Shown here piece by piece: positions 16-20,384 of a stretch of 64,000 nt of DNA (its first letter is position 1; every line of letters starts with the position of its first letter). Source of the stretch: a virus (Duplodnaviria > Caudoviricetes); the IMG/VR virus record IMGVR_UViG_3300013121_000022, positions 32,001 to 96,000 of that record; one strand, given 5' to 3'. A program made the position numbers and the translations under genes. The notes under the pieces are model-generated. The model saw only the letters and a program-made list of their open reading frames with translations. It did no database searches and was not told the DNA's origin.

Positions 16-1290
16 ATGGGATTTGATACATCCACCAGCATTTATCGCTTGCCACTAAACGCCGACATGACAAAATTCAAGCATGGATTTTTGGTGACAG
101 CGCCCGATTACTATACTCCAAGAGGGCCAAGCTCCAACAACGAAGTTCGCCAAGTGTTCGGCAAGCATCTTCCGGGACAACATGACCAGAGAGATCATGC
201 ACCTGCCCATCTATCCGACTCTGAGCATCAACGCTATGCCCGAAGTCGAGTTAAACGAGAATCGCTGGTGGCTAATGGACTCAAGGGTTATCGAGCACTA
301 ATTCAGTTGGTCGGCGGAGATCGCGCCAGTGAATTAGTCGCGTCTTATCGTCGCTATCGTCCAAGCAGATCGGCGCAGATCGTTTCTCGCTGGTTATTAG
401 ACCTGCATATCCCCCACGAGATGGAAGTAAAGCTTGCCCCTGAAATCTATGTTGACATCATGTTTGGGAACAAGATTATTGAACTACGTGGAAAGAATCA
501 TGCCAATCGATCAAAAGAATATGCCGCACAGCGCAAAGAAATTCAAAAGCGCAAAGCGGATATTGCTCAAAATCGCGGCATGTCTATATTGTATTTAACT
601 GATACAGAAATTCAAACTGGCAAAGCACTCGATAAATTGAAAGTGTTTGTGAACGAGCCTGCTCAAAAGCATCTGGCCGGAATGCATAATCAACAGGATC
701 ATGGACGCAAGAAACGCGAGTACGCCTTGACTGAAATCACTAAACAAGATGATAGTACGTGGTCAAAATCAGCAAATCAACTTTCAAAGCCCAATCATCC
801 GCGTTTTGATGACATCTTGAAATCAGCAATCTATATATATTCAGCCCTTGAAGATCAACAAAAATCAAAAGGCACATACAAGGTTGTTGGTCTGCGAGAC
901 AATTCCAATGTACTACAAGCGTTTTTTGGAGTAGATACATTAGACGCAGGCAAACTAAATAAGCTGAAAGACTATGGCATGTCTAATTCAGACGCAGATC
1001 AAATCAAAGATGCGTTGTACCTTGATTCCTTGTCGGTAGCTCCCTGGCATTTTGGAGATGACGGTGTTTCTGGTTGGGGAATTGAGATTATGAGATCGGC
1101 CATTAATTATGCCAAAAACAATCACAAGAATGGTATATTTCTAGTATCTGCCGATTCGGGATCGGACTCTTTTTACAATCTAATTGACATGAAGAAAATA
1201 TCAACACTCAACAATAAGCAGGGCTATTTTTGGAATACGCAAGACATGGAGGCGTTTTTGAATGAGTATCAACTTAGACAAAGCAAGTAA
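16..1290 (+). CDS. Modular effector/cargo polyprotein: His tag, Vsr/DUF559-like endonuclease, His tag, GNAT acetyltransferase (probably begins upstream of the window)
   Basis: Frame is open from base 1. Tags KHLPGQHDQRDH (163) and KHLAGMHNQQDHG (667). PD-(D/E)xK-like YVDIMFGNKIIELRGKNH..RGMSILYL. GNAT-like LYLDSLSVAPW..GWGIEIMRSAINYA..SFY. Confidence 0.65.
   Translation: MGFDTSTSIYRLPLNADMTKFKHGFLVTAPDYYTPRGPSSNNEVRQVFGKHLPGQHDQRDHAPAHLSDSEHQRYARSRVKRESLVANGLKGYRALIQLVGGDRASELVASYRRYRPSRSAQIVSRWLLDLHIPHEMEVKLAPEIYVDIMFGNKIIELRGKNHANRSKEYAAQRKEIQKRKADIAQNRGMSILYLTDTEIQTGKALDKLKVFVNEPAQKHLAGMHNQQDHGRKKREYALTEITKQDDSTWSKSANQLSKPNHPRFDDILKSAIYIYSALEDQQKSKGTYKVVGLRDNSNVLQAFFGVDTLDAGKLNKLKDYGMSNSDADQIKDALYLDSLSVAPWHFGDDGVSGWGIEIMRSAINYAKNNHKNGIFLVSADSGSDSFYNLIDMKKISTLNNKQGYFWNTQDMEAFLNEYQLRQSK
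368..381 (+). repeat. Dispersed 14-mer GATCGGCGCAGATC (first of at least 7 exact copies)
   Basis: Exact copies at 368, 7575, 33324(-), 38149(-), 44045, 49248 and 60917. Confidence 0.85.
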
Positions 1291-3829
1291 AATAAATCCA
1301 TTCGCCGGACACAAGTCAAGTAAGTTACGATCATCGATAACTCGCGCAATCAAACACTTGCCTGGCGAACACGATCAACTTACTCACGGTCATGGAGATG
1401 GTGTTAATAACTCTCAATCGCCTCAGCCTAACACAAGTTCAGTCGCACCAAAGCCCAAATCTTTGGGATCGCAATTGCAGGGACTTTCCATTCAGGAACG
1501 CAAGGCAATGTGGCAGGCCATGTCACAAGAACAACAAGACGAACTTGTTAACGCAAAAGAATACATCAAAAACACAATCGCAACTCGCCTGAAATTCGCT
1601 GGTAGGCGTCCCACCGAAGGCGAACCAGTCAAAGCGGTCAATCAACGATTGAAGCAGATTGGGGATTTTATTACTCCTGATGCTGGTAAGCAAATTCAAA
1701 AACACATGAAAGCACTTGACGGGTTTTTGAAGGCAAGTAAAGTGGACGACGATTCAATTCGAGAAATTTTACTAGAATCAGTCGATGCCCTTGCGGTTCA
1801 GGAAAACGAGAGCTTGTCTCGATCATTGGGAGATCACGGTGTTCGTCACTTGCTAGGCGATGTCGATGCCGCACTCAGTATTCTTGAAACAGTTCCGGGG
1901 TTTGATTCTCCACAAACCAAAGCGGTAGTAACATTGGCAGGTGTCTTTCACGATTCGGGATACCTAACCGAACCAAGTCACTTCTTTTTGGATTCCGAAC
2001 ATCCACACCATTCTACTCAACACTATGAGGCCAATATTAGTCCAATGATCAAGGACGCACTCGGAGATGCCGCTGATGCCTTGTTAAAGAAAACCATTGA
2101 AACACACTATAGCAATGAACTGGATTGGGAAAACGATCCGGTGGCAAGTGCATTTCGTGTGGCTGATAACGTGGCCTTATTTCATAAGGAAAAACTACCC
2201 GGCCTTATTCATCACGTACCAGAAAACAAGCAGGTAATTTTTGACTTTGCCGATAAAAAAATTGACGTACCCGAAGCAATCAAGCGGATGAAGGCAAACA
2301 TTAAGTCCAGTTCCTTATCCGACTCAGTCAAGGCAGTGCTATCTCATGCCGCCGACGAATTCTCGCCCGTCCTTGTCAAAAATACATTGGGTATGTTGGC
2401 CGGAGAAATAAAAGGCTTTGACTGGCAAGACAATTCTCTGGTCGTAAAGGTAAAGCGCGACCAAGAAAATCTCAAGATGCATCAAGTATTTGATCTTGGG
2501 CAAAAGAACTTCACCAAGTTTGCGGAAGCATTTGGAGTTGATCCAAAGAAATTTGAGACTGAAAACAAATTTGAATTCATCGATCCACAAACAAGCAAGC
2601 TGGATATGCTGGTATTGGTAGAGGGAAAACTTGAAAAAGAATTGTTTGCCAGAATTATGAAAAGTATGAATTCATACTTACGCAAGCATCATGCCGGAGA
2701 GCACGATCAACTTACTCATGGAAACTGGTCGGATGCCACATGGAAGTCGCTCGAATCCGAATCGCAGGACAAAATTATCAATACCATGAAACACGCAAAG
2801 CCTGTAAAAGTTTTTGGTAGCAATCTTGCCAATGTATATACGTTAGACTTGAATGGCGACAGGCGTGTTGTTGAATGGGACGGTGAAGATGACTTGTATC
2901 CAGCAGTGTCGCCAATTGACGACTTTGTGTATTCCAGTTCCGGCGAACGCATGATAAATAAGATCGTCTCTAAACTTTCTGAACAATTTTCATCTGACTT
3001 CAATCAACACCCACAAACACTGTATCATGCAACTGACAGTAAAAACGTTGCATCAATAACGTCGCAAGGGCTAAAACCGTCTGACAAGACCAGAGGCATT
3101 ACAAATCGTCATGTGCATAACGCGATTTTTACAACACTCAATGAGAATTCAGCACTGTCAGGATCATATGGAGATTCGGTATTCAAGATTGACACACAGG
3201 CTATGAAACGTGACGGAATCGATCTGTCAGTCGAAAAAGAACCAGAAGCATTTCGTCAAGAAGCAACTCAAATTTTAGCCAATGCCATTGGGATTGAAGA
3301 TTTTGAGAGCAATGAATCTTTCGATAACGCTGACGACCCTGAAACGGTAATTGCCTACAATTCAATTCCGCCAAAATATCTAACGCTGGTAACTCAAAAG
3401 TCACAAGGCGATAACGCCATACTATATCATGGCACAGGCGCAGATGTAGTTGAACGCATCAAAAAGGAAGGGTTACTTCCTCCATCTCTAACTGGCAACG
3501 CAGTGGCAATGGCACATTCAATTGAAAGTGAGGAAGACGCAGATCGATACGCGTCGGTGTACTTGACTGGCAATAAAAAAAAGACATTGGCCTACGCTTT
3601 ACAATCAGCAAAGTTTCATAATGCATCTCAGGCCGCAATCATAGAGGTTGAATTGCCAGAATCGGAATCGACTATAATCGATGAATACGATTCGGAGTCG
3701 GTGAGACTTCCAGAGGTAAAGCCAGAATGGATCAAAAATATTTCGTTGTTATCTGTCGGTGATTTGGAGAGAATGACAAAAAGCGCAAGAGATAGAGAGA
3801 CTCTATACGCTGTTGTTGTAATAAAATAA
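1262..3829 (+). CDS. Modular effector/cargo polyprotein: His tag, HD domain, His tag, two ADP-ribosyltransferase-like domains
   Basis: Tags at 1352 and 2684. HD motifs DHGVRH..FHDSGY..HHS..ETH..VADN. Two ART/KptA-like motifs LYHATDSKNVASITSQGLKP..IFTT and LYHGTGADVVERIKKEGLLP..VYLT. Confidence 0.7.
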   Translation: MSINLDKASKINPFAGHKSSKLRSSITRAIKHLPGEHDQLTHGHGDGVNNSQSPQPNTSSVAPKPKSLGSQLQGLSIQERKAMWQAMSQEQQDELVNAKEYIKNTIATRLKFAGRRPTEGEPVKAVNQRLKQIGDFITPDAGKQIQKHMKALDGFLKASKVDDDSIREILLESVDALAVQENESLSRSLGDHGVRHLLGDVDAALSILETVPGFDSPQTKAVVTLAGVFHDSGYLTEPSHFFLDSEHPHHSTQHYEANISPMIKDALGDAADALLKKTIETHYSNELDWENDPVASAFRVADNVALFHKEKLPGLIHHVPENKQVIFDFADKKIDVPEAIKRMKANIKSSSLSDSVKAVLSHAADEFSPVLVKNTLGMLAGEIKGFDWQDNSLVVKVKRDQENLKMHQVFDLGQKNFTKFAEAFGVDPKKFETENKFEFIDPQTSKLDMLVLVEGKLEKELFARIMKSMNSYLRKHHAGEHDQLTHGNWSDATWKSLESESQDKIINTMKHAKPVKVFGSNLANVYTLDLNGDRRVVEWDGEDDLYPAVSPIDDFVYSSSGERMINKIVSKLSEQFSSDFNQHPQTLYHATDSKNVASITSQGLKPSDKTRGITNRHVHNAIFTTLNENSALSGSYGDSVFKIDTQAMKRDGIDLSVEKEPEAFRQEATQILANAIGIEDFESNESFDNADDPETVIAYNSIPPKYLTLVTQKSQGDNAILYHGTGADVVERIKKEGLLPPSLTGNAVAMAHSIESEEDADRYASVYLTGNKKKTLAYALQSAKFHNASQAAIIEVELPESESTIIDEYDSESVRLPEVKPEWIKNISLLSVGDLERMTKSARDRETLYAVVVIK

Positions 3830-5313
3830 TGGCCTCCAGCCTAGAAGAAAAAGCACTATACGTCAAAGCACTTTACAAACAAGGTCTAAAGTTTCCGGCA
3901 TGGAGTGTGGAACGCACTAAGTTTCATACTGAATCGTTTTGGTTATTTTCAAATTGGTTTAGACCACAATCCGAACCATATCAACCATTTCATAAAGAGT
4001 GGATGGAAATTGCTTGTGGTCAACAATTCTTTGGAGTTCTCGCACCCCGCGATCATTCAAAGTCAACAACCTTTGGATCGAACTACCCGATCTGGAGATT
4101 GTTTATGCAACCCGAATCGACTATTATGCTGGTCGCTTCTGCCGCCTCAGTTGCTGAATTACAAATGCGACGTATCAAAGAGTGCATCGAAACTGACGAC
4201 TTGCTAAAAAAGTATTTTGGAAATTTATATCCCACCAATCCAATCAAATGGACAAACACAGAAATTATCGTGGAGCGACCCGCTGGTATCGCCCATCCCT
4301 CAGTCGTAGCTCTAGGTGTTGGGGCAGCTATCCTGTCTCGTCGTGCTAAATTCGTAATAGCCGATGATATTGTGCGAGATGACGAAGTTGGAGATGAACA
4401 GCGCGAACGACTGGCGGCATGGGTTAATGGAGTTTTGCTTGGAGTTCTTGAACCTGATGATCAAGTGGGCTTTATTGGCACAAAGAAACACGAGTGGGAT
4501 TTTTACGGGCAATTAGAACAAAATCGAAAATACTTTTATCGGCGCTATGACGCGATTCAAAAAGAAAATCCAGATGGATCATGGGAAACATTGTGGCCGA
4601 GTAAATGGCCGGACAAAGCCCTAAAAGATCGTCTGGAATTACTTGGATCGCATGAATTTAATCGCAACTACCGCAACATCGCAATGGGTGACAACGAATC
4701 ACCTTTTCCGCTCAAGTGGCTTGAAAAATGCAAGCAATGGGACTTAGATTTGCATTGGGAGTATCCTTATCAAGACATCAAAAAGGTGATTTCCATAGAC
4801 TTGTCAATGAACAGTCAAACTAAAGGATCATCGGGATCGTACTTTGTTGCATTGGTCTTGGGATTGCTCCCTGATAACCGCTATATTGTGCTCAACATGA
4901 TTAGAAGCAAGACATTTAACTTTCCGCAACAGGTTGAGGAAGTGTCGCATCTTATTGAAAAATTCCCGCCCGATGCCGTGATTGTTGAAACTAATGCCTA
5001 TCAACGCGCCATGTATGATACTTTGGTGTTAAAATATCCACATATCAACATCGAATCGCACGTTACTGGTCGGAATAAAAATTCACCCGATGAAGGCATT
5101 CCAATTTTACAGCCAATCATTGAATCTGCTCGTCTTCTGTTTCCATATGCAAATCCAACTGCCAGAGCAATTAGCGATGTCATTATCGAGGAATTGAATC
5201 GACTGTTAGTTGCAAGGTACACTGATACAGTTATGGCGCTGTGGTTTGGAGTCAAGTGGTTGGCGCAATACGTGAAAACCACCAAGTACAGAACCAGAGC
5301 TGCTATTCTTTAG
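3829..5313 (+). CDS. terL: Terminase large subunit
   Basis: Walker A APRDHSKST, Walker B FVIADD, coupling motif IGT, RNaseH-like ISIDL..VETN..DTVMA; lies directly upstream of the portal. Confidence 0.92.
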   Translation: MASSLEEKALYVKALYKQGLKFPAWSVERTKFHTESFWLFSNWFRPQSEPYQPFHKEWMEIACGQQFFGVLAPRDHSKSTTFGSNYPIWRLFMQPESTIMLVASAASVAELQMRRIKECIETDDLLKKYFGNLYPTNPIKWTNTEIIVERPAGIAHPSVVALGVGAAILSRRAKFVIADDIVRDDEVGDEQRERLAAWVNGVLLGVLEPDDQVGFIGTKKHEWDFYGQLEQNRKYFYRRYDAIQKENPDGSWETLWPSKWPDKALKDRLELLGSHEFNRNYRNIAMGDNESPFPLKWLEKCKQWDLDLHWEYPYQDIKKVISIDLSMNSQTKGSSGSYFVALVLGLLPDNRYIVLNMIRSKTFNFPQQVEEVSHLIEKFPPDAVIVETNAYQRAMYDTLVLKYPHINIESHVTGRNKNSPDEGIPILQPIIESARLLFPYANPTARAISDVIIEELNRLLVARYTDTVMALWFGVKWLAQYVKTTKYRTRAAIL

Positions 5314-5322: not shown

Positions 5323-7062
5323 ATGAGAAAATCAAAAACACCGACAAAGCCGCTAATCCCTAAAACAGACATCAAAGTTATTCCAGTCGAAAAGGGAATG
5401 AAAGACGATGGAACACCATTTGTTAAAGCCGTTGTGTTGAAGGGTGCAAAAAAATCACGCGTCAAGCGAGACATTTCCAAGTCGGCCTACAAAGACAATA
5501 AAATAGTTGAACCGTATCTTAAGCCAGCAGTGTTAGACGAGTTTTTGGTTGCCTCTCCAACTCATGCAATCTCAGTACACAAAAAAGCCAGACTAGTCGC
5601 CGGACTCGGCATTAAGATCATTACCCGATTTAACGCTGGAGAGGCTAGGGTAAAAATGCGAAAATGGGAAAATGCCGATCCCGAACAACAAAAAAAGCTC
5701 GATAAAAAAGAGTACGATGAAGCTAAAAAGAATTTGGCGGCATTCAAGCTCGAAAAAGAAAGATTACAAAACTGGCTGGACAGCGCAACAGACGAATCGA
5801 TCTTATTGGATATTATTGAAAACTTTTGGGCGGACTATGAGGCATTTGGTAACGGCAACTTAGAAATTCGCCGCGACGATAATGATGAAGTTGCCAAAAT
5901 CGGACACATCCCCTCACTTCGACTGAAAGTAGTTCAGGGCGGAGAGAAGTTCGCTTACTTCGCCACACCCAATCAAATCAATCCAGAATATTTCAAGCGA
6001 TTTGGCGATCCCCGACACCTAAACGCCAAAACTGGTGAATGGCGAGAGTGGAAAGGATCGATTGACGATGACGATTTTGACGCAGGCAAAGATTGGGGAG
6101 ATGACGAAGCGAATGAGGTATTGCGCTATCTGTGCTACAACTCTCGCGACATGAATTACGGCATTCCTGTTTGGTATTCAGCTTTGGCCGATATGATCGG
6201 CGCAATCGAATCGCGTGACTTCATGCTCAAGTTCTTCACCGAAAAAGCTGTGCCCATGTATGCGGTTCTACTGGAAGGCGGATCGTGGTCGGATGAAACC
6301 ATTGCCACTATTCAAAATTTCTTTCGTCGTGAACTTAACGGAAACTATCACGCGACACTCGCCCTAGAAGTTCCAGAGAATGGCAAGATTACGTTTGAGC
6401 AAATCAGCCAAGAGCCGCGCTGGTGGCCTTTCATTCTAAAATATCGTGACACTGTGCGAGATATTATTGTCTCGGTACACGGCCTTACTCCGTCCCTTGT
6501 GGGCGTCATTGAAACGGCGCACTTGGGAGGCGGAGATGGATCGGCGCAAATGGAAATGGTCAAAACCGCCGAAATCAAGCCGCGTCAAGAAAAACTTGAA
6601 TGGCTGATGAATCAAAAATTGATCAAGGATGGCATGGGATTGTCGCATGTCATGATCAAGTTTGATGAGATTGATGTCAAAGACGAATCTGCAACCGTTC
6701 AATCAGTTAATACACTTTACTCAAGTCCGCAAAGACCTGCTATTACGACCAATGAAGCAAGAGAAATGTTACGCCTTGCGCCCGTTGATGCAGAATGGGC
6801 GGACGAGCTATTGTTGCAAGACCCGCAATTCGGGTTGTTGCCTATCAGTCAAATTTCAGAGGCAGTTCGCAATCAAGCAAAGTCGGCGCAGATCGCTGGA
6901 CAGGCACAGGGCATTGAGTCTCAAACACAAAACGTTGATGGCCTGCCAGCATCGAAACCAACAGGACAACCAGAACAAGTCCCTGATTTCAACAGTATCT
7001 TTTCTGGATTACAAAAATCAAAAATCAATTTGAGGAAAGAGGTTCGAGATGCTATTAAATAG
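5323..7062 (+). CDS. Portal protein (PBSX-like)
   Basis: DYEAFGNGNLEI, YGIPVWYSAL, FF..KAVP, ITTNEAREMLRLAP; follows terL. Confidence 0.9.
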   Translation: MRKSKTPTKPLIPKTDIKVIPVEKGMKDDGTPFVKAVVLKGAKKSRVKRDISKSAYKDNKIVEPYLKPAVLDEFLVASPTHAISVHKKARLVAGLGIKIITRFNAGEARVKMRKWENADPEQQKKLDKKEYDEAKKNLAAFKLEKERLQNWLDSATDESILLDIIENFWADYEAFGNGNLEIRRDDNDEVAKIGHIPSLRLKVVQGGEKFAYFATPNQINPEYFKRFGDPRHLNAKTGEWREWKGSIDDDDFDAGKDWGDDEANEVLRYLCYNSRDMNYGIPVWYSALADMIGAIESRDFMLKFFTEKAVPMYAVLLEGGSWSDETIATIQNFFRRELNGNYHATLALEVPENGKITFEQISQEPRWWPFILKYRDTVRDIIVSVHGLTPSLVGVIETAHLGGGDGSAQMEMVKTAEIKPRQEKLEWLMNQKLIKDGMGLSHVMIKFDEIDVKDESATVQSVNTLYSSPQRPAITTNEAREMLRLAPVDAEWADELLLQDPQFGLLPISQISEAVRNQAKSAQIAGQAQGIESQTQNVDGLPASKPTGQPEQVPDFNSIFSGLQKSKINLRKEVRDAIK

Positions 7063-7360: not shown

Positions 7361-7395
7361 AAAAATCACCGTCTCAGGACGGTGATTTTCGTTTT
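7359..7395. terminator. Bidirectional intrinsic terminator
   Basis: AAAATCACCGTC-TCAG-GACGGTGATTTT between convergent genes. Confidence 0.8.
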
Positions 7396-7873: not shown

Positions 7874-7906
7874 ATTTCACCTTAAATGATAAATCCCATA
7901 ACGGGC

Positions 7907-8341: not shown

Positions 8342-8362
8342 ATCAATTCCTTTCTAAAAGCA

Positions 8363-10188: not shown

Positions 10189-10930
10189 ATGCATCTTAGA
10201 AAAAGCGTTCAGCGCATCGTCAAACACTATGGCCCGGGCGACCATAAATCTGGCTCGCCTCAATTGGTTCATAACCCGCATCATTCGAGTGAATCGGACG
10301 ACATTGTTTCTACAGGCGAATCGGTTGGGTATCCAGATATACACGTATCATTCAAAAAGTCCAATCCAAGCGAATTCAAAAAAGCCATACAGTCAACTGA
10401 AAATCGCAGCTCATTTTTAGGTGGATACTCGGAAGACGACTATAAAAAGATGTCGGTGTATCTATCAACTGATGGAAAGACGGGATTTGCAATCAAGCCT
10501 GATGGCGATCTTGTCTCAGTGTTCAACAATGGCGGAGTGAAGGGAGCTGGAAAAGTTGCAATCAAAACTGCTTTGAAGCAGGGCGCAAAAAAACTCGACT
10601 GCTTTGATGGATTTCTACCTAATTTCTATGCCAGCTTTGGTTTCAAAGAAAGTGAGCGCATGAAATGGGACGACCAGTACGCTCCAAAAGATTGGGACTA
10701 TAAGAACTATAACAGACGTTGTTTTTATGGTTGTTGGAGATGAACAAGTGAACAAACAATTGAACAATAAACTAAAACTAAAAATTGAATCAAGATACGG
10801 AAAAGGGTATCTCGATAAATACAGAAAAATGTTCCTAGATCAATTGAATTACATCGAATCTCTTGGTGTTCCAGATAAAATGACTGAACAAGAACTAAAA
10901 GAACTAAGAGAATTCCTTGAAAGCGAATAA
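10189..10930 (+). pseudogene. Tagged GNAT-like cargo protein split by a frameshift near 10713 (ORFs 10189-10743 and 10727-10930)
   Basis: Leader LRKS..IVKHYGPGDH..Q.VH and GNAT-like KGAGK..ALKQGAKKLDCFDGFLPNFYASFGF. The expected continuation (RP)DVVFM appears in the other frame. Confidence 0.65.
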
Positions 10931-12998: not shown

Positions 12999-14148
12999 TC
13001 TGTGAGTTCGGTTTGTAAATCAACTGATTCAATAAACATTCTTTCGGATACTTGTCCGTTCGTCCGCCACGCCAGCGCGGTTGAAACAGATTATTAGTTT
13101 CGGGATTGGCATACAAATAACGCACCTGACCAACCGATCCAATGGGCGGCATTTCGTATTTGACTGAGATCGATGTGTTGCCCACAAAAACAAGTTTGCC
13201 CGTAGAGTCATTCAGCCACATACTGACACTACGCTTGCCCGAACGACTTTCGCCAACGATGACATCGGCCTCTTTTACAAACTTGTACTTGAACTGATCG
13301 CCGCCTGAATTTGGCTTGCCAGCAGTATAAGGCGCATCGATTCGTTTGAATACAACCCCTTCCTCTGCGGAATACATCAATCCATTGTCGTCATACACAA
13401 CCCGACTGGCATTCTCGAATGCATTCAATTTTTCTTGCGTCGAGAAATACGCGTGAACATAATCGACATTCTTGTAGTTCTTGTGAAACAACCGAATAAG
13501 GGCATCGTATCGTTGTCCGAATCCATAAGATCGTAAATCAATATCACCGTACTTAAGCAAATCGAATACGTAATAAAATGCACTGACATCTTCACCGTCA
13601 ACTAACAAATGACTGGTCAACCCGAATGTTGCCAGATGATTTAGATCGGCCTGTATTTCTCTGGCGCATTCCGTTAGCAGACCTTTCTTGTTGATCCCAA
13701 AAGTTCCATGACTCGCATCATAATCAATCAGTAAGCGCCGACCATCCTTTTTGAATTGCATCGCATACTCAGGATTGCGACACAAGTCTAAGGCTTGTTC
13801 GTATTCAATTTCATTCAAGAGCTGCGGATAAGTCTGAGGCGGAACGATCCCGATAATTTTTCCGGCACTGTCAGCGATTGGAGTTGACTGAGGGGCGTAT
13901 CCAGAAATCGCCATTGGCAGATAACCCTCTTTGCGTTTCTCGGTTTCTTTAGCGTCGTAAAGTTTTATCGCCTGATCATACGGAACATTTATTGCCACGT
14001 CCCGTCGAGTTAAAGTCCCACCGTGTCGGCCATTGCGAGTTACAACGTTCCATTTTCCGGCAACAGCAGACTTCTCAAGAACGATCTCGAAGTCTTTATT
14101 CGATGTACCCGACTCAAAATGAAGCATAATACTTTTTGGTTCGTTCAT
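12985..14148 (-). CDS. WGR-domain ATP-dependent DNA ligase-like nucleotidyltransferase
   Basis: N-terminal GTSNKDF..VVTRNGRHG (WGR-like); motif I KKDGRR, VDGE, YVFDLL, EGVVFK, YK.K; C-terminal OB-like region. Confidence 0.85.
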   Translation of the reverse strand: MNEPKSIMLHFESGTSNKDFEIVLEKSAVAGKWNVVTRNGRHGGTLTRRDVAINVPYDQAIKLYDAKETEKRKEGYLPMAISGYAPQSTPIADSAGKIIGIVPPQTYPQLLNEIEYEQALDLCRNPEYAMQFKKDGRRLLIDYDASHGTFGINKKGLLTECAREIQADLNHLATFGLTSHLLVDGEDVSAFYYVFDLLKYGDIDLRSYGFGQRYDALIRLFHKNYKNVDYVHAYFSTQEKLNAFENASRVVYDDNGLMYSAEEGVVFKRIDAPYTAGKPNSGGDQFKYKFVKEADVIVGESRSGKRSVSMWLNDSTGKLVFVGNTSISVKYEMPPIGSVGQVRYLYANPETNNLFQPRWRGGRTDKYPKECLLNQLIYKPNSQSDED

Positions 14149-14186
14149 TGTTAATTTATCTCTCTCGGATGAAATCGCTAATCTGT

Positions 14187-14546
14187 TTATTCGGCATCAA
14201 AATCAAGCTTACCCCGCCGAATCAAATCATCCCATTCGGGAATATCCAATTGATTGGCAACAGCATCAATCTGCATGATGGGAATGTGACGTTCAATCAG
14301 AAAGACAAAATTTTTCAACTCTTGCAATGTCACATGTCCGCCTCCATCAATTCGATCTGCTACTTTGGCAAGGGGCGGGATAATACTCATTTTTCCAAAC
14401 AGATAGGGATTGATGACACCAAGATTGACATAGGCATCGATGTCTGTATCACCCACTGCTTCACTTTCAATGCTTTTTGTCTTTTGGGCACATGTCAAAA
14501 GATTCCGAATCAAGGTATCGGCCTGTGATTGAGTAAGTGTTGTCAT
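14187..14546 (-). CDS. Hypothetical protein
   Basis: ORF with upstream GAAGGG RBS in the - strand operon. Confidence 0.55.
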   Translation of the reverse strand: MTTLTQSQADTLIRNLLTCAQKTKSIESEAVGDTDIDAYVNLGVINPYLFGKMSIIPPLAKVADRIDGGGHVTLQELKNFVFLIERHIPIMQIDAVANQLDIPEWDDLIRRGKLDFDAE

Positions 14547-14547
14547 T

Positions 14548-14860
14548 TTATCCCTTCAGAATCGCCAGAGCTGTGGTGTATCGATAAACTTGGGACGGGC
14601 GCAGTGTTGCACGATGATCTAAATAATCAGTGAGATCGGCAATCTTGATCGGCGCAGACTCAGTTGGCTTTAGAGATCGAATGTAATCAAAATATCGAAC
14701 ATCTTCATTACGAGTCACGATTTGAACTAAAGCCAAGACCCGTTCTCCAAACTTATCACGAATAAGATGAGGCACGATATTATTTGAAAGATCGTCCTCA
14801 ATTGTGTCGTGCAAAATGGCGTGCGGCAAAAATTTTTGATCTCTCTAAAATGTTATCCAT
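14548..14860 (-). pseudogene. RelA/SpoT(MESH1)-like HD hydrolase with an internal deletion and frameshift
   Basis: ATG at 14860 reads MDNILERSKIFAA, joined out of frame to AILHDTIED..IKIAD; the usual H..Q.RK..PY..H segment is missing. Confidence 0.65.
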
Positions 14861-15035: not shown

Positions 15036-16010
15036 ATGACATCAAAACAAGAATTGATTAAAAACATAACCGCACAAATTGCAAGCCTGCTCGACAAAGG
15101 ACTTGAGACATCAAATCTTAGTCAAGGTGGCATGTTGAATTCGGCACAACTTGTTTTGCCAAAGTCGGTTGATGAATTGCCCGACTCAGCAAAAGAAGAA
15201 TTTATTTCAGTGTACAAATCAACAGACGGTGGGGAAGAAACAAAACTCTCCACTGCATGGAAGGCAGTCAAGCGCAAGTGGAAAAAAGTTGAACCCGAAG
15301 ATTCGGAAGACGAAGAATCTGCCGATCACGAACAGGGTGAAACTCCCGACGAAGAAAAAACCGAAGACGAGAATGGCAAGAAAAAGAAAAAGCCGTTCTG
15401 GATGAAAAAAGATGTCTTAGGGCCAATCGTTGGCGATGTTGATCAGTTGCGTCGTCAGTTGATTACAGATGGCTACCCCGAAGCGGCAGAAGAAGTTCAG
15501 ATGGTTGCTGACTCTGGATGGACAATGCCTCTCGCTTTAGACTCAATCCCTCATGGATACAGGGAAACAATTTCGGAGCGATATTTTCATGCTCGCAAGG
15601 ACTTGACTGAAAACGCCGACGAAGCGTTTGAAGTTCAAGTTGCTTTCAAGGCATTGCTTGATGAGCGCAAGATTACTTATGGGGTTGTGTATCCAGCCAA
15701 TGAGGTTGATTTGCAGAAAGAATGGGCGACGGAAAATGTAATTGAAAACGCCGCGCATAATTTCATGGCAAATTACCGACAGCACGACACCTTCCACAAC
15801 GAACGTGCTGGAGCAGGCGTACCCGTTGAATCGTTTATCGCGCCATGCGATATAACCGAATTTCACGGCAAGCGTCTAACTCCCGATCAAGTTATCAAGA
15901 AAGGTTCGTGGATCATGGCAACGAAGTGGAACGATGATACTTGGAACTTGGTCAAGAGCGGAAAGATTAAAGGTTACAGTATCGGCGGATTCAAACGAGT
16001 TCGGAGATAA
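15036..16010 (+). CDS. ChaB domain plus XkdF-like prohead serine protease
   Basis: ChaB-like ELPDSAKEEF..AWKAVKRKW; XkdF-like YGVVYP..D.Q.E..IENAAHNF..H..VESFI..KGSW..GKIKGYSIGG. Confidence 0.85.
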   Translation: MTSKQELIKNITAQIASLLDKGLETSNLSQGGMLNSAQLVLPKSVDELPDSAKEEFISVYKSTDGGEETKLSTAWKAVKRKWKKVEPEDSEDEESADHEQGETPDEEKTEDENGKKKKKPFWMKKDVLGPIVGDVDQLRRQLITDGYPEAAEEVQMVADSGWTMPLALDSIPHGYRETISERYFHARKDLTENADEAFEVQVAFKALLDERKITYGVVYPANEVDLQKEWATENVIENAAHNFMANYRQHDTFHNERAGAGVPVESFIAPCDITEFHGKRLTPDQVIKKGSWIMATKWNDDTWNLVKSGKIKGYSIGGFKRVRR

Positions 16011-16012: not shown

Positions 16013-16921
16013 ATGACGAACAAATTAACTAAAGACGATCCAGAAGCGAAAGAGCTTACACACTTAGATGTTCAATTTGTAAGTGCAGTTGGTAATCCAG
16101 CTACTGGAAAGGACTTCTTACTTTACAAGTCGAAAGACAAAGAGGCACACAACATGAGTGATAAACTTACAGCCGATCAAGGCGTCTTTAAGGAATTTGG
16201 ACGCAAGCTTGCTCAGGCATTTGGCGTTGAAACCGTTGACGAAAGTTTGGCGGAAGCAACTCAGCATCTTGCTGAAATTGCAGCTAAGGCCAGCGGACGC
16301 GCACCAGCTGATGATGCAGGCAATGGTCGTAATCCAAACTATCCCAACCCACCCTATGCGAAATCTCAGGGTATTCCAAATTCAAATGGCGCAACCGCGT
16401 CAGTTGGTAGTTCCGCTCCGGGAACAACTATGAAGCAACAGGCTGAAATTGTACAGGGCAACCCAGCTTTCAATTCCAGCATGAGCGATGTAGTTTCGGG
16501 ACAACCAGTTACAAAAGACGCAATTCAGGAATTTTTGAATCGTGTCGAGAAATCAGCAATCAACCCAAGCGCACTGGAAACAGCTCGTGAAGCTTTGGAA
16601 GCGGCATTCAATCCTGCGCCGGAGGAAACACACATGACATCCGAAGAAGTTAAAGAACTTGTCCTCAAAGCACTCGATCCAATCATCGAGCAAGTTGAGG
16701 AACATGATGAAACAATTACAACCCTTAAGAGCTCGACTGATTGGGAAGCGAAATACAACGAGCTGTTGTATCGCGTCGATGCACTTGAAGCTACCTTCAA
16801 GAATGCAGATGGCACACGCAAAGTTGCAAAAAGTCGTGTTCCGCCTGTCACCGAACCCGTAGCGAAGTCCAGCGGTGTTTGGGCAGGTTCGCCGTTTGAC
16901 ATCTCGGAAGATTTGCTGTAA
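16013..16921 (+). CDS. Capsid scaffold protein
   Basis: N-terminal LDVQFVSAVGNPA..FLLYKS, many Lys-Ser/Ala sites, C-terminal coiled coil; between protease and capsid. Confidence 0.7.
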   Translation: MTNKLTKDDPEAKELTHLDVQFVSAVGNPATGKDFLLYKSKDKEAHNMSDKLTADQGVFKEFGRKLAQAFGVETVDESLAEATQHLAEIAAKASGRAPADDAGNGRNPNYPNPPYAKSQGIPNSNGATASVGSSAPGTTMKQQAEIVQGNPAFNSSMSDVVSGQPVTKDAIQEFLNRVEKSAINPSALETAREALEAAFNPAPEETHMTSEEVKELVLKALDPIIEQVEEHDETITTLKSSTDWEAKYNELLYRVDALEATFKNADGTRKVAKSRVPPVTEPVAKSSGVWAGSPFDISEDLL

Positions 16922-16954: not shown

Positions 16955-17932
16955 ATGGCTATGACACCAGAAGAAATTCAGAAACTTGCAGAAGAAATGA
17001 CCCTTCGCAAGTCTTTGCAAACAAGCAACTTGGTTAATGGTGGTTTATTGAATCCGGCGCAAGCTGATGCATTTATCACCTATATGTTCGAGTTGACTGT
17101 GTTGACCAAGCTCCGCTTGATCCGCATGACAACTCCAAAGCAGGACATCGACAAGATCGGTGTTGGTACACGTTTGCTCCGCAAGGCAAGCGAAATGACC
17201 ACTGTTTCCGACTCCACAACGTTTACGTTGGGTAAGGTTCAGTTGGTTACTCAGAAATTGGTATTGCCCTGGGATATTTCCCGCGATACCTACAAATCAA
17301 ACATCGAACGCTCAGGCGTTGCTGATACGGTTCAGCGATTGATGGCTATTCAGGCCGGAAACGATGTTGAAGATTTAGCTATCAACGGTGATACCGCGTC
17401 CGGCGATTCATTGCTATCGGCTAACGATGGTTGGTTGAAGTTGGCAAAGGCATCCGCCGATACCGTTCAGATCATGGCATCTGGTTCTGGTATTTCAAAG
17501 GCGTTGTTCAGTCGAATGATCAAGGGCTTGCCCAACAAGTTCAAGACTCGTCGTTCAGAATTGCGCTTCTATGCCGCACCGAACATCGTTCAGGATTACG
17601 TCGATCAATTGTCAGATCGCGAGACACAATTGGGCGATAGCTTGATCCAAGAAGGCGCTCGTGCAATGGTCTTTGGTATTCCGTTGATCGAAGTTCCATT
17701 GATCCCAACCGATACCGCTGGTACATACGTTGGAGCAACCGGAAACCACTCCGATGTTATCTTGACCTTCCCTGAAAACTTCGTAACTGGAGTTTTGGAA
17801 GACATCGTAGTGTTCCACTGGTTCAATGCTCGTAAAGACGCGCATGAATTTACCATGTACGTTGAAACAGATTACCAGTGGGAAAACTTGCAGGCAGTTG
17901 TTCTACTGCGAGATACCAAAGTATTAAGCTAA
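16955..17932 (+). CDS. Major capsid protein (HK97 fold)
   Basis: GGLLNPAQADAF, DKIGVGTRLL, NDVEDLAINGD, DGWLK; strong RBS, followed by a terminator. Confidence 0.9.
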   Translation: MAMTPEEIQKLAEEMTLRKSLQTSNLVNGGLLNPAQADAFITYMFELTVLTKLRLIRMTTPKQDIDKIGVGTRLLRKASEMTTVSDSTTFTLGKVQLVTQKLVLPWDISRDTYKSNIERSGVADTVQRLMAIQAGNDVEDLAINGDTASGDSLLSANDGWLKLAKASADTVQIMASGSGISKALFSRMIKGLPNKFKTRRSELRFYAAPNIVQDYVDQLSDRETQLGDSLIQEGARAMVFGIPLIEVPLIPTDTAGTYVGATGNHSDVILTFPENFVTGVLEDIVVFHWFNARKDAHEFTMYVETDYQWENLQAVVLLRDTKVLS

Positions 17933-17957
17933 CCATTAATACCTGATACTACAAGCC

Positions 17958-17997
17958 GACAGGCGACGATCTAAACAGTCGTCGCCTGTTTTGTTTC
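17958..17997 (+). terminator. Intrinsic terminator after the capsid gene
   Basis: ACAGGCGACG...CGTCGCCTGT followed by TTTGTTT. Confidence 0.8.
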
Positions 17998-18032
17998 CCC
18001 GTATAAAGAGCGCCAGATAAACGAGATTTATC

Positions 18033-19121
18033 ATGCCCATTCGCCAGCGTATTAGATCGATCCTTGTCAAACATTTAGCTGGACAACACGATCAATTAAC
18101 TCATGACCCAACTCCCGATTGGGATGCTCAGGATTCCAAGTTTGAATACGAAGTGGTTTCACACACCAGTGCAGTCAATAAAGACTTGCTAGATTGGCGC
18201 GATCAAATTGGTAAAGTAATGAGCAAATTTAATCAGCGGTATGACTTTGAAAGATTTTTTGGATTCCGTCCAAATCGAGACGACCTTGATCAACTGGATG
18301 AATCGGCCACTATTCAGTACAACGCAGTGACTTTTCTATTAAATCGATCCGGTGGATCGTTGCAAGACGACTTTCAAACAGAAAAAACCATTGTTGAGTC
18401 TCGGCTACAGCAAGCACAAGATGCGTTAGACAACGCAACTTTCAAGACTGATGAATATCGCAAGATTTGGAAAAAAGCAGATCAAGAATATGAAGATTAT
18501 GATGGGGACGATGAATACACCATTAATGTACTCAGTCGTCGAGTGAGCGATGCCAAGTATAATTTTGAAGAATATGAAGACTACCAAAAAAGCTACGAGA
18601 ACGATCTTGAGGAAGTGCAGAATGAACTCGACAACCTTGAAACATCTTGGGAGGATGGTACATATGCAAAGGATCATGACAGCGCCTACAATGAAGCTGT
18701 GGCATCAACTTATCGAGATTCGAGTGGTATACTACAAGCGTTTGCAGTATTTTCTGGAAAACCCGAACCCAATGGCGAGTGGTATATGGAATTTATGTCT
18801 GTAGCTCCCTGGAACAATCCTAATGCCAGTCGCATTCGAGACGAGGAAACAGGTAAGCGAGTAAACATTGATCGTCAAATCGAAAATCTTTTTGGTCACA
18901 AAAAAGACGCAACTGCTTCATTGAAATTGGCTTTGAAAATATGCAAAGATGCGGTAAAATCAAATTCAACTCTCAGGTTTCAGCCAGCCACAGATCAAGT
19001 TCAAAAGCTGTATGAATTCGTGGGCGCAAAAGTTGTCGGGCGTGAGGAAAACATGCCAGTGATGACATGGGACGTTAATTCTATGAAGAAATTCATAGAG
19101 AACTACAAAGGGAATTCCTAA
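18033..19121 (+). CDS. Tagged cargo protein with acidic coiled coil and C-terminal GNAT-like domain
   Basis: KHLAGQHDQLTH at 18069. RDSSGILQAF..YMEFMSVAPW..LYEF.G..W..MKKFI resembles the GNAT in ORF 16-1290. Confidence 0.65.
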   Translation: MPIRQRIRSILVKHLAGQHDQLTHDPTPDWDAQDSKFEYEVVSHTSAVNKDLLDWRDQIGKVMSKFNQRYDFERFFGFRPNRDDLDQLDESATIQYNAVTFLLNRSGGSLQDDFQTEKTIVESRLQQAQDALDNATFKTDEYRKIWKKADQEYEDYDGDDEYTINVLSRRVSDAKYNFEEYEDYQKSYENDLEEVQNELDNLETSWEDGTYAKDHDSAYNEAVASTYRDSSGILQAFAVFSGKPEPNGEWYMEFMSVAPWNNPNASRIRDEETGKRVNIDRQIENLFGHKKDATASLKLALKICKDAVKSNSTLRFQPATDQVQKLYEFVGAKVVGREENMPVMTWDVNSMKKFIENYKGNS

Positions 19122-19747
19122 TGAAAAAACCAGATGATTTAGAATGGGACTTTACAGTTGTCAAGCCCAAGAAAAAAACAAATCTTAAAAAAGCAGTCGC
19201 TCAAGCACTTGAAGTCAACAAGCATTTGCCGGGACAGCACGATCAATCAAGTCATGCTGGTAATCGAGCTAAAGCAAAAATGTTTGATCGGACGCAGTTT
19301 TCAAACCATGATGAAAATTCTTTTAAGCAAGTAGCCAAAAAAAACCAAGAGAAGTTTGCCAAACTTTCATCAGTAGAAAAAGGCAGTCTCATTAGACAGT
19401 GGGCGAATAACAACCCGCATCAATTGTTCAAAACGTTAGCTGCTTTTTTGGATAACAACAATCAGTCCACTCTATCGGGAATCGTGGATAAAATGGCGAG
19501 TCATTATCCCGACATACATGATACAGTTGGAAACACCGCAAACGGCATGTTTCATATCGCCGGACGTGACGCCTTAGAACTGGATACATACCACAGAACA
19601 CTCGATCCTGACGTTGAGCGAGAGGGTATTGTACAACTCATAAGCCGAACAGGAAGCAACCCAAGCGATGTGTTTAGATCGGCATTTGGTCAAGCACAAC
19701 TCACCGTTCAGGATCGAAATTGGCTTGATAAAAAGTTGTCATGGTAA
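19121..19747 (+). CDS. Tagged cargo protein, unknown domain
   Basis: KHLPGQHDQSSH at 19220. Confidence 0.65.
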   Translation: MKKPDDLEWDFTVVKPKKKTNLKKAVAQALEVNKHLPGQHDQSSHAGNRAKAKMFDRTQFSNHDENSFKQVAKKNQEKFAKLSSVEKGSLIRQWANNNPHQLFKTLAAFLDNNNQSTLSGIVDKMASHYPDIHDTVGNTANGMFHIAGRDALELDTYHRTLDPDVEREGIVQLISRTGSNPSDVFRSAFGQAQLTVQDRNWLDKKLSW

Positions 19748-19853
19748 AACAAAGTCACAACTCAAGAAACAAGTCGAAGAAATTTTACAAAAAGCAGGAA
19801 CGTCAGCCGGAGTAAAAGACTTGGATCAAGAATCCAAGTATCAGGAGTATTAG
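19741..19853 (+). pseudogene. Degraded cargo-leader remnant
   Basis: KSQLKKQVEEILQK nearly duplicates KSPLKKQVEEVLQK in the next ORF; the ATG at 19741 is one base out of frame. Confidence 0.4.
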
Positions 19854-19856
19854 ATT

Positions 19857-20384
19857 ATGGGAAAACATACACCCGAATTTGAAAGGTGTGTAGAATCGGT
19901 CATGGAGTCTGGCAAAGACAAGTCCAGCGCATTCGCTATTTGTACCGCTTCTTTCAAAAAGGCAGGGAAACCAATTTTGAAATCACCACTCAAAAAGCAA
20001 GTTGAAGAAGTTTTGCAGAAACACCCAGGACACCCCGATCAAAAAGTACATGGTCATAAAGGTCGCGGTACATCTCAGAACGAATCGGCAAGTGCAACCA
20101 AACCATCGTCTAATAGCCCCAAGATCATTGAGTGGGAAAAATCGAAAGCAACAATCTCCAAACGAAATGATGGTGGTCACGACGTTGAATACAAGGGCCT
20201 GAAGGTTGAAATCAAACCTCATTCATTGGGCGGATTCATGGCGCACTTTAGACCCCCGCCAATTGGCGGCAAAAAATCGAATGAAATAACTTCAATGAGA
20301 CTCAACGGGCAAGACAATTTATTGCAATGGGCAAAAAGCACTCTTATTGAGTTCAGTCGAAACAATTTGTACGATAAAGACTAA
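19857..20384 (+). CDS. Tagged cargo protein with N-terminal two-helix Cys motif
   Basis: FERCV..AFAIC domain; KHPGHPDQKVHG at 20019. Confidence 0.65.
   Translation: MGKHTPEFERCVESVMESGKDKSSAFAICTASFKKAGKPILKSPLKKQVEEVLQKHPGHPDQKVHGHKGRGTSQNESASATKPSSNSPKIIEWEKSKATISKRNDGGHDVEYKGLKVEIKPHSLGGFMAHFRPPPIGGKKSNEITSMRLNGQDNLLQWAKSTLIEFSRNNLYDKD

What the first reader, a model, noticed from the sequence alone, without database searches (positions are those of the whole stretch)
163..20054. Repeated His-rich tag after a Lys marks a set of swappable effector modules around the head genes: candidate capsid-loaded effector delivery system
Seen: the motif K-H-[LH]-[PA]-G-x-H-[DN]-Q-x-x-H occurs at 163, 667, 1352, 2684, 18069 and 19220, with variants at 10222 (KHYGPGDH..Q..H) and 20019 (KHPGHPDQKVHG). 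That is 8 copies in 6 ORFs, all on the structural strand and flanking terminase, portal and capsid. Codons differ between copies, so conservation is at the protein level. Each tag precedes a different domain: Vsr-like nuclease, GNAT (three times), HD hydrolase, ADP-ribosyltransferases, unknown. In two ORFs the tag is repeated internally, giving polyproteins. Established: prohead proteases process head and internal proteins, and some phages inject enzymatic internal proteins. Inference: the XkdF-type protease cuts after the Lys, exposing an N-terminal HLPGQHDQ..H peptide that acts as a packaging or ejection signal for host-takeover or anti-defence enzymes.
Basis: partly seen in the sequence, partly recalled or inferred. 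Interest (0 to 1): 0.9.

Follow-up and report, generated by a model that had tools for sequence, protein, structure and literature searches.

The report
Histidine-rich header tag on phage cargo
A 172-kb uncultured phage puts one short histidine-rich peptide in front of about 22 enzyme modules encoded around its head genes. The residue just before the peptide changes with the type of head protease in other phages, so it is probably an undescribed "load and cut" label for enzymes carried in the capsid and injected with the DNA.

Summary
All six canonical copies sit exactly where reported (0 expected by chance), and both variants are there.

The window shows only the edge of the system. The whole genome has 18 canonical and 4 variant copies in 17 ORFs, all on one strand, between 9.3 and 52.4 kb.

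The tagged proteins are phage "polyvalent protein" modules: ADP-ribosyltransferases, Macro, topoisomerase IB, a poly(A)/CCA polymerase and a GNAT-like fold.

The tag core H-L-P-G-x-H-D-Q-x-x-H-G is widespread in uncultured phages, with at least 779 representative proteins. It is almost absent from prokaryote genomes. I did not find it in deposited phage genomes, solved structures or the papers I could search.

The tag always heads a module and never ends a protein.

The residue before the first His is specific to each lineage: K, E, F, A or L, and it is the same for all tags of one phage. K-type phages carry S78 or XkdF-type proteases (24 of 39 contigs). E- and F-type phages never do (0 of 27).

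This supports cleavage just before the His by the phage's own head protease. It refutes a link to XkdF alone. Packaging, cleavage and the role of the universal core are still unproven.

Earlier scan notes described the same tag in other genomes.

The parts
1..1290 (+). C-terminal 429 aa of a 1425-aa polyprotein (genome 29013-33290). It has 5 tags; the last two are in the window.
   Evidence: Pfam ART-PolyVal and weak LPD1 lie in the upstream part.
163..201 (+). Tag copy KHLPGQHDQRDHA
667..705 (+). Tag copy KHLAGMHNQQDHG
1262..3829 (+). 855-aa two-tag polyprotein: leader-tag, a 440-aa module of unconfirmed family, a second tag, then Tpt1/KptA/PARP-like ADP-ribosyltransferase modules. Its stop overlaps the terminase start.
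1352..1390 (+). Tag copy KHLPGEHDQLTHG
2684..2722 (+). Tag copy KHHAGEHDQLTHG
3829..5313 (+). Large terminase subunit
   Evidence: phrog_38, E 3.6e-60
5323..7062 (+). Portal protein
   Evidence: PF04860 and phrog_12
10189..10743 (+). 184-aa ORF with an intact leader (HLRKSVQRIVK) and a decayed core (HYGPGDH...LVH, from 10222). It lies alone on the + strand inside a minus-strand block.
   Evidence: phrog_2563, function unknown
15036..16010 (+). Head maturation protease: weak ChaB-like N-part and XkdF-type S78_2 C-part. Its N-terminus carries LLDK|GLETSNL (Lys codon at 15096-15098).
   Evidence: PF14550, E 8.9e-28; phrog_3017
16013..16921 (+). Scaffold-like protein. It matches the C-terminal part of protease-scaffold fusions.
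   Evidence: phrog_3017, positions 231-337
16955..17932 (+). HK97-fold major capsid protein. Its N-terminus carries TLRK|SLQTSNL (Lys codon at 17009-17011), a candidate maturation site.
   Evidence: phrog_1623, E 2e-88
18033..19121 (+). 362-aa single-tag protein: 12-aa leader, tag at 18069-18107, coiled-coil region and a GNAT-like C-terminal fold.
19121..19747 (+). 208-aa single-tag protein of unknown family, tag at 19220-19258.
19857..20384 (+). 175-aa protein with the short variant tag KHPGHPDQKVHG (20019-20054). A relative keeps a similar variant at the same place, before the glycosyltransferase gene.

Best explanation
**What the tag is.** The repeat is a two-part header placed in front of each enzyme module that the phage carries as capsid cargo.

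- **Part 1, specific to the lineage.** A short predicted helix ends in hydrophobic-x-Lys. This is most likely the recognition site of the phage's own head-maturation protease (here XkdF-type, S78_2), which would cut between Lys and His.
- **Part 2, universal.** The core H-L-P-G-x-H-[D/N]-Q-x-x-H-G, followed by a Gly/Arg/Ser-rich linker, would stay as the new N-terminus of every released module.

**What the modules are.** They are 'polyvalent protein' effectors: ADP-ribosyltransferases, Macro, topoisomerase IB, poly(A)/CCA polymerase with HD, and a GNAT-like fold. They are made together with the head genes. They are probably built into the procapsid, cut free inside it and injected with the DNA.

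**Shown here**
- The motif, its header position and its spread among phages.
- The enzyme families of the tagged proteins.
- The covariation of the residue before His with the protease family.

**Inferred**
- Packaging, cleavage and injection.
- The role of the universal core. A three-His/Asp metal site, or a contact with a shared head part such as MuF or the portal, is a guess.
For: **The motif in this genome**
- Six exact copies lie in the window against 0 expected.
- The genome has 22 copies, all on the + strand. The degenerate DNA pattern gave no match on the reverse strand or in the backwards-read control.
- Codons differ between copies.
- The tagged ORFs form one block with terminase, portal, protease, scaffold and capsid genes, and stops and starts overlap.

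**The tagged proteins**
- Pfam finds ADPrib_exo_Tox, Topoisom_I, Macro, PolyA_pol with HD, ART-PolyVal, LPD1 and Tpt1/KptA.

**The same tag elsewhere**
- 61 IMG/VR stretches hold the strict pattern.
- A profile search finds 779 representative proteins, with up to 10 tags per protein.
- These proteins carry polyvalent-protein domains and fusions to MuF, portal, S78 and XkdF protease.

**Geometry in the IMG/VR loci**
- No tag lies less than 5 residues from an ORF start or less than 86 residues from an ORF end.
- Tag-to-tag spacing is 103-562 aa.

**The residue before His**
- It is K in all 121 IMG/VR tags. About a third of these were found without requiring K.
- It is K in 90% of 665 database tags.
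- The exceptions are protein-wide: F, A, L or E in all, or all but one, of the tags of a protein. They are also contig-wide.
- Each class has its own P3 residue: L/I/V before E, E/T/D before F, V/I/L before K.

**Link to the protease family**
- S78 or S78_2 is present in 24 of 39 K-type contigs (6 of 8 complete). It is present in 0 of 27 E- and F-type contigs (0 of 8 complete). Fisher p = 4.5e-8.
- Mu-like_Pro is found only in F-type contigs.

**Candidate maturation sites in head proteins**
- All 22 capsid proteins of this clade keep hydrophobic-x-K|(S/A/N/D)-(L/M/F)-x-T near the N-terminus.
- The protease repeats the same site.
- In a relative, the protease ORF starts exactly one residue after that Lys.
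- In an E-type phage, all 7 tags are hydrophobic-x-E|H, and L-T-E|S occurs twice just before the capsid domain.

**Fold of the tag**
- AlphaFold2 on 113 tags gives a helix ending at the Lys, a loop and a short D-Q-x-x-H helix. pLDDT is only 60-72, so it looks like a linear motif and not a domain.
Against: **No direct data**
- There are no virion proteomics, no N-termini and no cultured host.

**Weak points in the protease link**
- The contigs in the protease contingency table are related to each other, so the p-value overstates independence.
- The E-type sites look like the T4 gp21 consensus, but no S77 protease was detected in those contigs. That search also had no positive control.
- Two complete K-type genomes show none of the protease families I tested.

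**The core is not explained**
- A 12-residue core that is nearly invariant across phages with different protease families is far more than a protease site needs. Its function is not explained by cleavage.
- This phage's capsid, scaffold and portal proteins lack the core, so the core is not needed for ordinary maturation cuts.

**Other points**
- This genome has no detectable MuF, although MuF accompanies the tag in 53 of 66 other contigs.
- Several neighbouring effector-like ORFs carry no tag (RelA/SpoT-like, Zeta toxin).
Confidence: 0.55

Rival explanations
1. The tag is only a docking peptide and is not cut. The helix plus His-rich core would bind a head component (MuF, portal, scaffold or the inner capsid surface), so that modules ride into the procapsid. 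The lineage-specific residues before His would adapt to that partner and not to a protease.
For: - MuF is the most constant companion of the tag: 28 of 39 K-type and 25 of 27 E- and F-type contigs.
- The core is conserved far beyond what a protease site needs.
- The tag behaves as a linear motif after a helix, like the cargo-loading peptides of encapsulins and the C-terminal tail of the HK97 protease. That comparison rests on my own knowledge.
Against: - In portal-, MuF- or protease-fused proteins the module is already tethered, yet the tag still sits at each junction. Docking alone does not explain this.
- The sharp break between variable and universal residues falls exactly at X|H.
- The X residue tracks the protease family.
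- This genome has 22 tags and no detectable MuF.
Confidence: 0.2
2. The core is a self-contained chemical device. It could be a small metal-binding site (three His plus Asp/Asn), or a self-cleaving or crosslinking element. It would act without the head protease, for example by cutting or anchoring modules on its own.
For: - K, three His, Gly, Gln and D/N are invariant across phages with different protease families.
- Two complete tag-bearing genomes have no protease family detected.
- The His spacing (0, +5, +10), a P-G turn and a predicted one-turn helix over D-Q-x-x-H are compatible with a chelating loop.
Against: - Neither Pfam nor the PDB has a matching known motif.
- The model confidence is low.
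- This reading does not explain why the residue before His is lineage-specific and tracks the protease family.
- No chemistry was tested.
Confidence: 0.1
3. The tag has nothing to do with the capsid. It would be an inter-domain linker or regulatory peptide, such as a site for a host factor or a joint that eases module shuffling, on effectors made late and released at lysis or acting inside the producing cell.
For: - No packaging data exist.
- One tagged ORF (10189-10743) lies outside the head operon, among replication and repair genes.
- Close relatives of this phage lack canonical tags near the capsid gene and use other leaders.
Against: - The tag is tightly linked to head genes here and elsewhere, including direct fusions to portal, MuF and prohead proteases.
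- It is strongly enriched in viral contigs: 61 stretches, against 1 credible hit in 596 Gb of prokaryote genomes.
- DNA identity between copies is low, so it is not a recombination site.
Confidence: 0.07

Closest known systems
Capsid targeting sequence (CTS) of phage T4 internal proteins IPI-III and Alt, removed by prohead protease gp21 (own knowledge; reviewed in PMC9026906, which one search listed but I did not read)
   Same: A short N-terminal amphipathic leader ends in the head protease's consensus site. It sits on otherwise unrelated proteins, including an ADP-ribosyltransferase, that are packed in the head and injected. The 12-aa leaders here (for example M-x-I-R-x-R-I-x-x-L-x-K) have the same format.
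   Different: - There is no sequence similarity to the T4 CTS.
- The protease here is S78_2, not S77.
- The putative P1 residue is Lys, not Glu.
- A universal 12-residue His-rich core follows the cut site and would stay on the cargo. T4 has nothing like it.
- The tag is also used internally to string modules into polyproteins.
- It spans many unrelated phage lineages.
Phage-type polyvalent proteins and MuF- or portal-fused effectors (Iyer, Burroughs, Anand, de Souza, Aravind 2017, PMC5512222; also PMC9503650)
   Same: The domain repertoire is the same (ART-PolyVal, LPD1, ADPrib_exo_Tox, Macro, TopoIB, GNAT, ParB, Zeta, RelA/SpoT). So are the position next to the portal and terminase genes and the proposed delivery with the DNA.
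   Different: - Term searches of the three Aravind-lab papers for linker, processing, leader and related words found no mention of this tag. The 2017 paper proposes zincin-like peptidases for processing.
- Here many modules are separate genes, each with its own tag.
- No MuF is detectable in this genome.
MuF polymorphic toxins of temperate phages (Jamet et al. 2017, PMC5576092)
   Same: A head protein (MuF) carries variable C-terminal toxin or effector domains. The tag often lies between MuF and the effector in other phages.
   Different: - That family is defined by an N-terminal MuF domain and by prophages.
- This phage has no MuF.
- The tag is almost absent from prokaryote genomes.
- A term search of that paper for linker, cleavage and motif words found nothing on such a tag.
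HK97 capsid maturation (gp4 protease, S78; cleavage of gp5 after Lys103; own knowledge)
   Same: A protease of the same superfamily, with cleavage after Lys in a helical leader. K-type tags co-occur with S78 or S78_2 proteases.
   Different: HK97 is not known to load enzymatic cargo through such a site, and it has no His-rich core.

Membership tests
Phage-type polyvalent proteins (Iyer et al. 2017) | Several unrelated effector or enzyme domains of the polyvalent repertoire in one polypeptide | tested here: met
   - The 1425-aa ORF has ART-PolyVal and weak LPD1, with 5 tag-separated modules.
- The 855-aa ORF has two tag-separated parts with Tpt1/PARP-like ARTs.
- Many other modules here are single-domain ORFs, so they are split versions.
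Phage-type polyvalent proteins (Iyer et al. 2017) | Encoded next to the portal-terminase packaging genes | tested here: met
   The tagged block runs from genome 9.3 kb to the terminase start. Three more tagged ORFs follow the capsid gene.
Phage-type polyvalent proteins (Iyer et al. 2017) | Carried in the virion and delivered with the DNA | not testable with these tools
   The phage is uncultured and no proteomics exist.
T4-type capsid-targeted internal proteins (CTS system) | Short N-terminal leader ending in the prohead protease consensus, shared with the capsid maturation sites | tested here: inconclusive
   - Leaders of 12-13 aa ending in hydrophobic-x-K lie on 5 single-module ORFs.
- The same hydrophobic-x-K is conserved at the N-termini of the capsid protein and the protease.
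- No cleavage data exist.
T4-type capsid-targeted internal proteins (CTS system) | gp21-type (S77) protease and L/I-x-E cleavage | tested here: not met
   The protease is PF14550, S78_2, and the residue before His is Lys. This phage therefore works like the T4 system but is not a member of it.
MuF polymorphic toxins | N-terminal MuF (PF04233) domain | tested here: not met
   No PF04233 match in the whole genome at E <= 1.
XkdF-type prohead protease (Peptidase_S78_2) | Pfam PF14550 match above the gathering score, in the head-gene position | tested here: met
   97.3 bits against a cut-off of 24, residues 209-319. It lies between the portal and the scaffold and capsid genes.

The most novel reading that the evidence does not exclude
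The core H-L-P-G-x-H-D-Q-x-x-H-G is a universal, portable address label for capsid cargo across many unrelated tailed phages. Each phage's own head protease cuts immediately before the first His. This would create a His-first, metal-binding N-terminus that every injected module needs for retention in the head, for passage through the tail, or for its first action in the host. If so, the tag would allow a whole class of injected anti-defence and takeover enzymes to be listed from sequence alone.
Probability: 0.3. Interest if true: 0.85.

Novelty: new variant of a known kind. Interest (0 to 1): 0.75.

Why it matters
**An open question becomes testable.** How tailed phages other than T4, P1 and the phiKZ group choose which proteins to pack into the capsid is largely unknown. 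So is how the giant polyvalent proteins are taken apart.

**Uses of the tag**
- A short, near-universal tag gives a sequence handle for finding packaged effectors in metagenomes.
- Its preceding residue appears to report the specificity of the phage's head protease.
- The tag offers a clear experimental design: tag a reporter, then mutate the residue before His.
- It could become a tool for loading proteins into phage capsids.

**Scale in this genome.** About 7,700 residues of coding capacity, roughly 13% of the genome, are devoted to tagged modules. That is an unusually large payload.

Tried and rejected
**Structure and complex prediction**
- Predicted complex of the tag with the full-length protease: no verdict (score 0.01, controls not run). 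This is evidence neither for nor against binding.
- AlphaFold2 of the tag alone gave only a low-confidence helix-loop-helix.
- The PDB profile search gave one irrelevant weak hit.

**Literature**
- Searches for the literal motif found nothing relevant.
- A search on XkdF cleavage specificity found nothing usable.

**Deposited phage genomes**
- Streptomyces phage Coruscant has the nearest named capsid relative. The first 45 kb of its record, which hold the head genes, carry no tag.
- tblastn of two tag peptides against 50,697 deposited phage genomes gave one hit, in a short unannotated frame of an unannotated record, which I judge to be chance. Sensitivity for so short a query is limited.

**Accession look-ups**
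- Ten NCBI-sourced tagged proteins yielded no cultured phage.

**Searches for a matching site in other lineages**
- The contigs for the F-, A- and L-type proteins either did not include head genes or gave no DNA.
- Two F-type Mu-like genomes gave no readable capsid cleavage site.

**Domain calls and sequencing runs**
- Pfam at E <= 1 on single modules did not confirm the Vsr, HD or GNAT calls.
- BLAST between the three putative GNAT modules was not significant.

**Rejected reading**
- A DNA-level repeat or recombination site. Nucleotide identity is 67% and the longest shared word is 23 nt.

Full report
**1.

A degenerate DNA pattern for K-H-x-x-G-x-H-[D/N]-Q-x-x-H matches the window six times, at 163, 667, 1352, 2684, 18069 and 19220. 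All matches are on the + strand, and none of 100 dinucleotide-preserving shuffles gave a match. The two variants are present at 10222 (KHYGPGDH...LVH) and 20019 (KHPGHPDQKVHG).

Copies share only 67% nucleotide identity over the 39 nt. Both synonymous codons are used at each invariant Lys and His, and the longest word shared by any two copies with their flanks is 23 nt. Selection therefore acts on the peptide and not on the DNA.

**2. The window shows only the edge of the system**

The window is bases 32001-96000 of a 172,504-bp IMG/VR virus record with direct terminal repeats. ORF 1-1290 is the C-terminal end of a 1425-aa polyprotein with five tags.

Genome-wide there are 18 canonical copies. 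A local profile adds four variants, including one with a two-residue insertion at the N-terminus of an 1112-aa ORF. That makes 22 tags in 17 ORFs, all on the + strand, between 9.3 and 52.4 kb. The degenerate pattern had no match on the reverse strand or in the backwards-read control.

In this genome the tag is preceded by a leader of the form (L/I)-R-x-x-(I/V)-x-x-x-(L/I/V)-x-K and followed by H-G-(R/N)-(R/K). Five single-module ORFs begin with exactly this 12-13-residue leader.

**3. What is tagged**

| Group | Content |
|---|---|
| Tagged ORFs (Pfam) | ADP-ribosyltransferase exoenzyme, bacterial topoisomerase IB, Macro, poly(A)/CCA polymerase with HD, ART-PolyVal with weak LPD1, Tpt1/KptA/PARP-like ARTs |
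| ORF 18033-19121 | Structure neighbours in the ESM Atlas are GNAT acetyltransferases (TM 0.6-0.7 on the GNAT side); a lead only |
| Untagged neighbours | RelA/SpoT-like, Zeta toxin, ParB-methyltransferase |

The block runs without a strand change into the large terminase (the stop of the 855-aa ORF overlaps the terminase start) and the portal. Three more tagged ORFs follow the capsid gene. The head protease is XkdF-type (PF14550, 97 bits), followed by a scaffold-like protein and an HK97-fold capsid protein.

**4. The tag is widespread, phage-specific and apparently undescribed**

- **IMG/VR.** The strict pattern K-H-L-P-G-x-H-D-Q-x-x-H occurs in 61 stretches from many samples, up to 7 per stretch.
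- **Profile search with word index.** A profile of the 18 copies finds 165 proteins in the 5.8-billion-protein set. They carry ART-PolyVal, ADPrib_exo_Tox, TopoIB, GNAT, InPase, ParB, SprT, NUDIX, DUF3626, MuF, portal, S78 and XkdF domains, and none has an informative name.
- **Exhaustive profile search.** It finds 779 representative proteins at E <= 0.001, with up to 10 tags in one 3023-aa protein.
- **Prokaryote genomes.** The same DNA pattern has 2 matches in 596 Gb from 185,579 prokaryote species. One is in a 767-aa ORF of a MAG contig and the other in an 18-aa frame.
- **Deposited phage genomes.** tblastn of tag peptides gave only one hit, in a short unannotated frame, which I judge to be chance. 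Sensitivity for so short a query is limited.
- **Structures and papers.** No solved structure contains the motif. No held paper contains the motif strings in a relevant context. Term searches of the polyvalent-protein, NAD-ADPr, jumbo-phage and MuF-toxin papers found no mention of such a tag.
- **Earlier scan notes.** Notes on other genomes describe what seems to be the same tag and call it undescribed. They are not independent evidence.

**5. Rules of placement**

These figures come from 96 distinct tag-bearing ORFs in the IMG/VR loci.

- Every tag is followed by at least 86 residues (median about 300).
- No tag lies less than 5 residues from an ORF start.
- Spacing between tags in one protein is 103-562 residues, the size of a domain.
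- After the core comes a Gly/Arg/Ser-rich linker.
- In fusion proteins the order is, for example, portal-MuF-tag-ART, MuF-tag-TopoIB-tag, S78 protease-tag-x-tag-y, or five tagged modules followed by MuF.

The unit is therefore [leader - tag - linker - module], and the tag is a header, not a tail.

AlphaFold2 on an alignment of 113 tags predicts a helix that ends at the Lys, a loop, and a one-turn helix over D-Q-x-x-H. pLDDT is only 60-72. This points to a linear motif and not a domain.

**6. The residue before the His tracks the head protease**

*The residue is lineage-specific.*
- In the IMG/VR set the residue before His is Lys in 121 of 121 tags. About a third of these were found without requiring Lys.
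- In 665 database tags it is Lys in 90%. The exceptions are not scattered:

| Protein | Residue before His | Tags |
|---|---|---|
| P0011 | F | 6 of 7 |
| P0059 | F | 6 of 6 |
| P0165 | A | 6 of 6 |
| P0133 | L | 5 of 5 |
| P0148 | E | 6 of 6 |

- Dedicated scans found 16 E-type and 37 F-type stretches in IMG/VR. Within each contig all tags belong to one class.
- Each class has its own P3 residue: L/I/V before E, E/T/D before F, V/I/L before K.
- The universal part therefore begins exactly at the His, and the three residues before it are under lineage-specific constraint.

*The class correlates with the protease family.*

| Family | K-type contigs (39) | E- and F-type contigs (27) |
|---|---|---|
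| XkdF/S78_2 | 13 | 0 |
| HK97-type S78 | 11 | 0 |
| S78 or S78_2, complete genomes only | 6 of 8 | 0 of 8 |
| Mu-like_Pro | 0 | 2 (both F-type) |
| S77, ClpP, S49 | tested in 5 contigs only; one has ClpP-type | 0 |

Fisher's exact test for S78 or S78_2 gives p = 4.5e-8 over all contigs and p = 0.007 for complete genomes.

The tag is thus not tied to XkdF, but the Lys form goes with the S78/S78_2 superfamily.

*Candidate maturation sites in the head proteins fit.*
- In this phage's clade, all 22 capsid proteins keep hydrophobic-x-K followed by (S/A/N/D)-(L/M/F)-x-T, about 19 residues from the start.
- The protease carries the same element: 13 of 20 residues are identical to the capsid N-terminus.
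- In one relative the protease ORF starts exactly one residue after that Lys.
- In the E-type phage of P0148, a seventh tag in a second protein is also hydrophobic-x-E|H, and L-T-E|S occurs twice right before the capsid domain of a scaffold-capsid fusion.

**7. Reading**

The simplest account has five steps.
1. The modules are made with the head genes.
2. They enter the procapsid.
3. The head protease cuts at X|H.
4. The leader is lost, or stays on the preceding module.
5. Each module starts with the His-rich core and is later ejected with the DNA.

This is the logic of the T4 capsid-targeting sequence, but with a different protease family, a different site and an extra universal element.

The core itself is not explained. 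It is far more conserved than a protease site needs to be, and it is the same across phages with different proteases. It must therefore serve something they share.
- MuF is the most constant companion, in 53 of 66 contigs. This genome, however, has none detectable.
- A three-His/Asp metal site, or a role in ejection, are open guesses.

I put 0.55 on the load-and-cut reading as a whole. Cleavage exactly at X|H, taken alone, I put at about 0.5.

**8. Caveats**

- All the evidence is comparative.
- Contigs are fragments and are related to each other.
- Protease absence rests on Pfam models, and the S77 search had no positive control.
- The strict patterns miss diverged tags.
- Close relatives of this phage lack canonical tags near the capsid gene. 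One uses the short KHPGH...KVHGH variant, and another uses a different leader (M-W-x-x-F-F-D-A...R-K) on its ART-PolyVal ORF. Tag types are therefore exchanged even within a clade.

Noticed in passing
window 15036-15150 and 16955-17070: The N-termini of the head protease and the major capsid protein share a 20-residue element, L-x-K-x-L-(E/Q)-T-S-N-L-x-x-G-G-(M/L)-L-N-x-A-Q (13 of 20 identical). The Lys is conserved in all 22 capsid proteins of the clade. In relative L133 the protease ORF begins right after it. This is a possible maturation site or a capsid-mimicking assembly motif.
   Followed up: partly
window 17932-20347; L132:10975-13566; L133:10987-13235: The slot between the capsid gene and a conserved family-2 glycosyltransferase gene varies among relatives. 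This phage has three tagged ORFs there. L132 has minus-strand small genes plus one ORF with a KHPGH...KVHGH variant tag. L133 has two ORFs including ART-PolyVal.
   Followed up: partly
L133:5629-6144 and L133:12601-13242: In a related 129-kb phage, two ORFs (one of them ART-PolyVal) share a different N-terminal leader, M-W-x-x-F-F-D-A-x-x-x-R-K-(D/E)-(Y/W)-N, followed by a P-R motif. This looks like a second, unrelated cargo-tag type.
   Followed up: no
window 7394-14829, minus strand: A minus-strand block sits between the portal and the protease genes. It encodes a UvrD-type helicase, RtcB RNA ligase, an ATP-dependent ligase-like protein and an HTH protein. This placement splits the head module.
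   Followed up: partly
genome 12674-14701 and 15378-16226 (L009:4674-6701, 7378-8226): The RelA/SpoT-like (675 aa) and Zeta-toxin (282 aa) ORFs carry no tag. Each starts at or within the stop of a tagged ORF, so they may be translationally coupled partners or cargo loaded by another route.
   Followed up: no
genome 20396-21550 (L009:12396-13550): An untagged 384-aa ORF in the middle of the tagged array matches phrog_4529 'minor head protein and DNA pilot' and weakly LPD1. It may be this phage's diverged stand-in for MuF.
   Followed up: no
L076:8435-10981: An E-type tag phage encodes an 848-aa fusion of an unassigned N-terminal region (possibly protease plus scaffold) with a Phage_capsid_4 domain. 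L-T-E|S occurs twice at the junction.
   Followed up: partly
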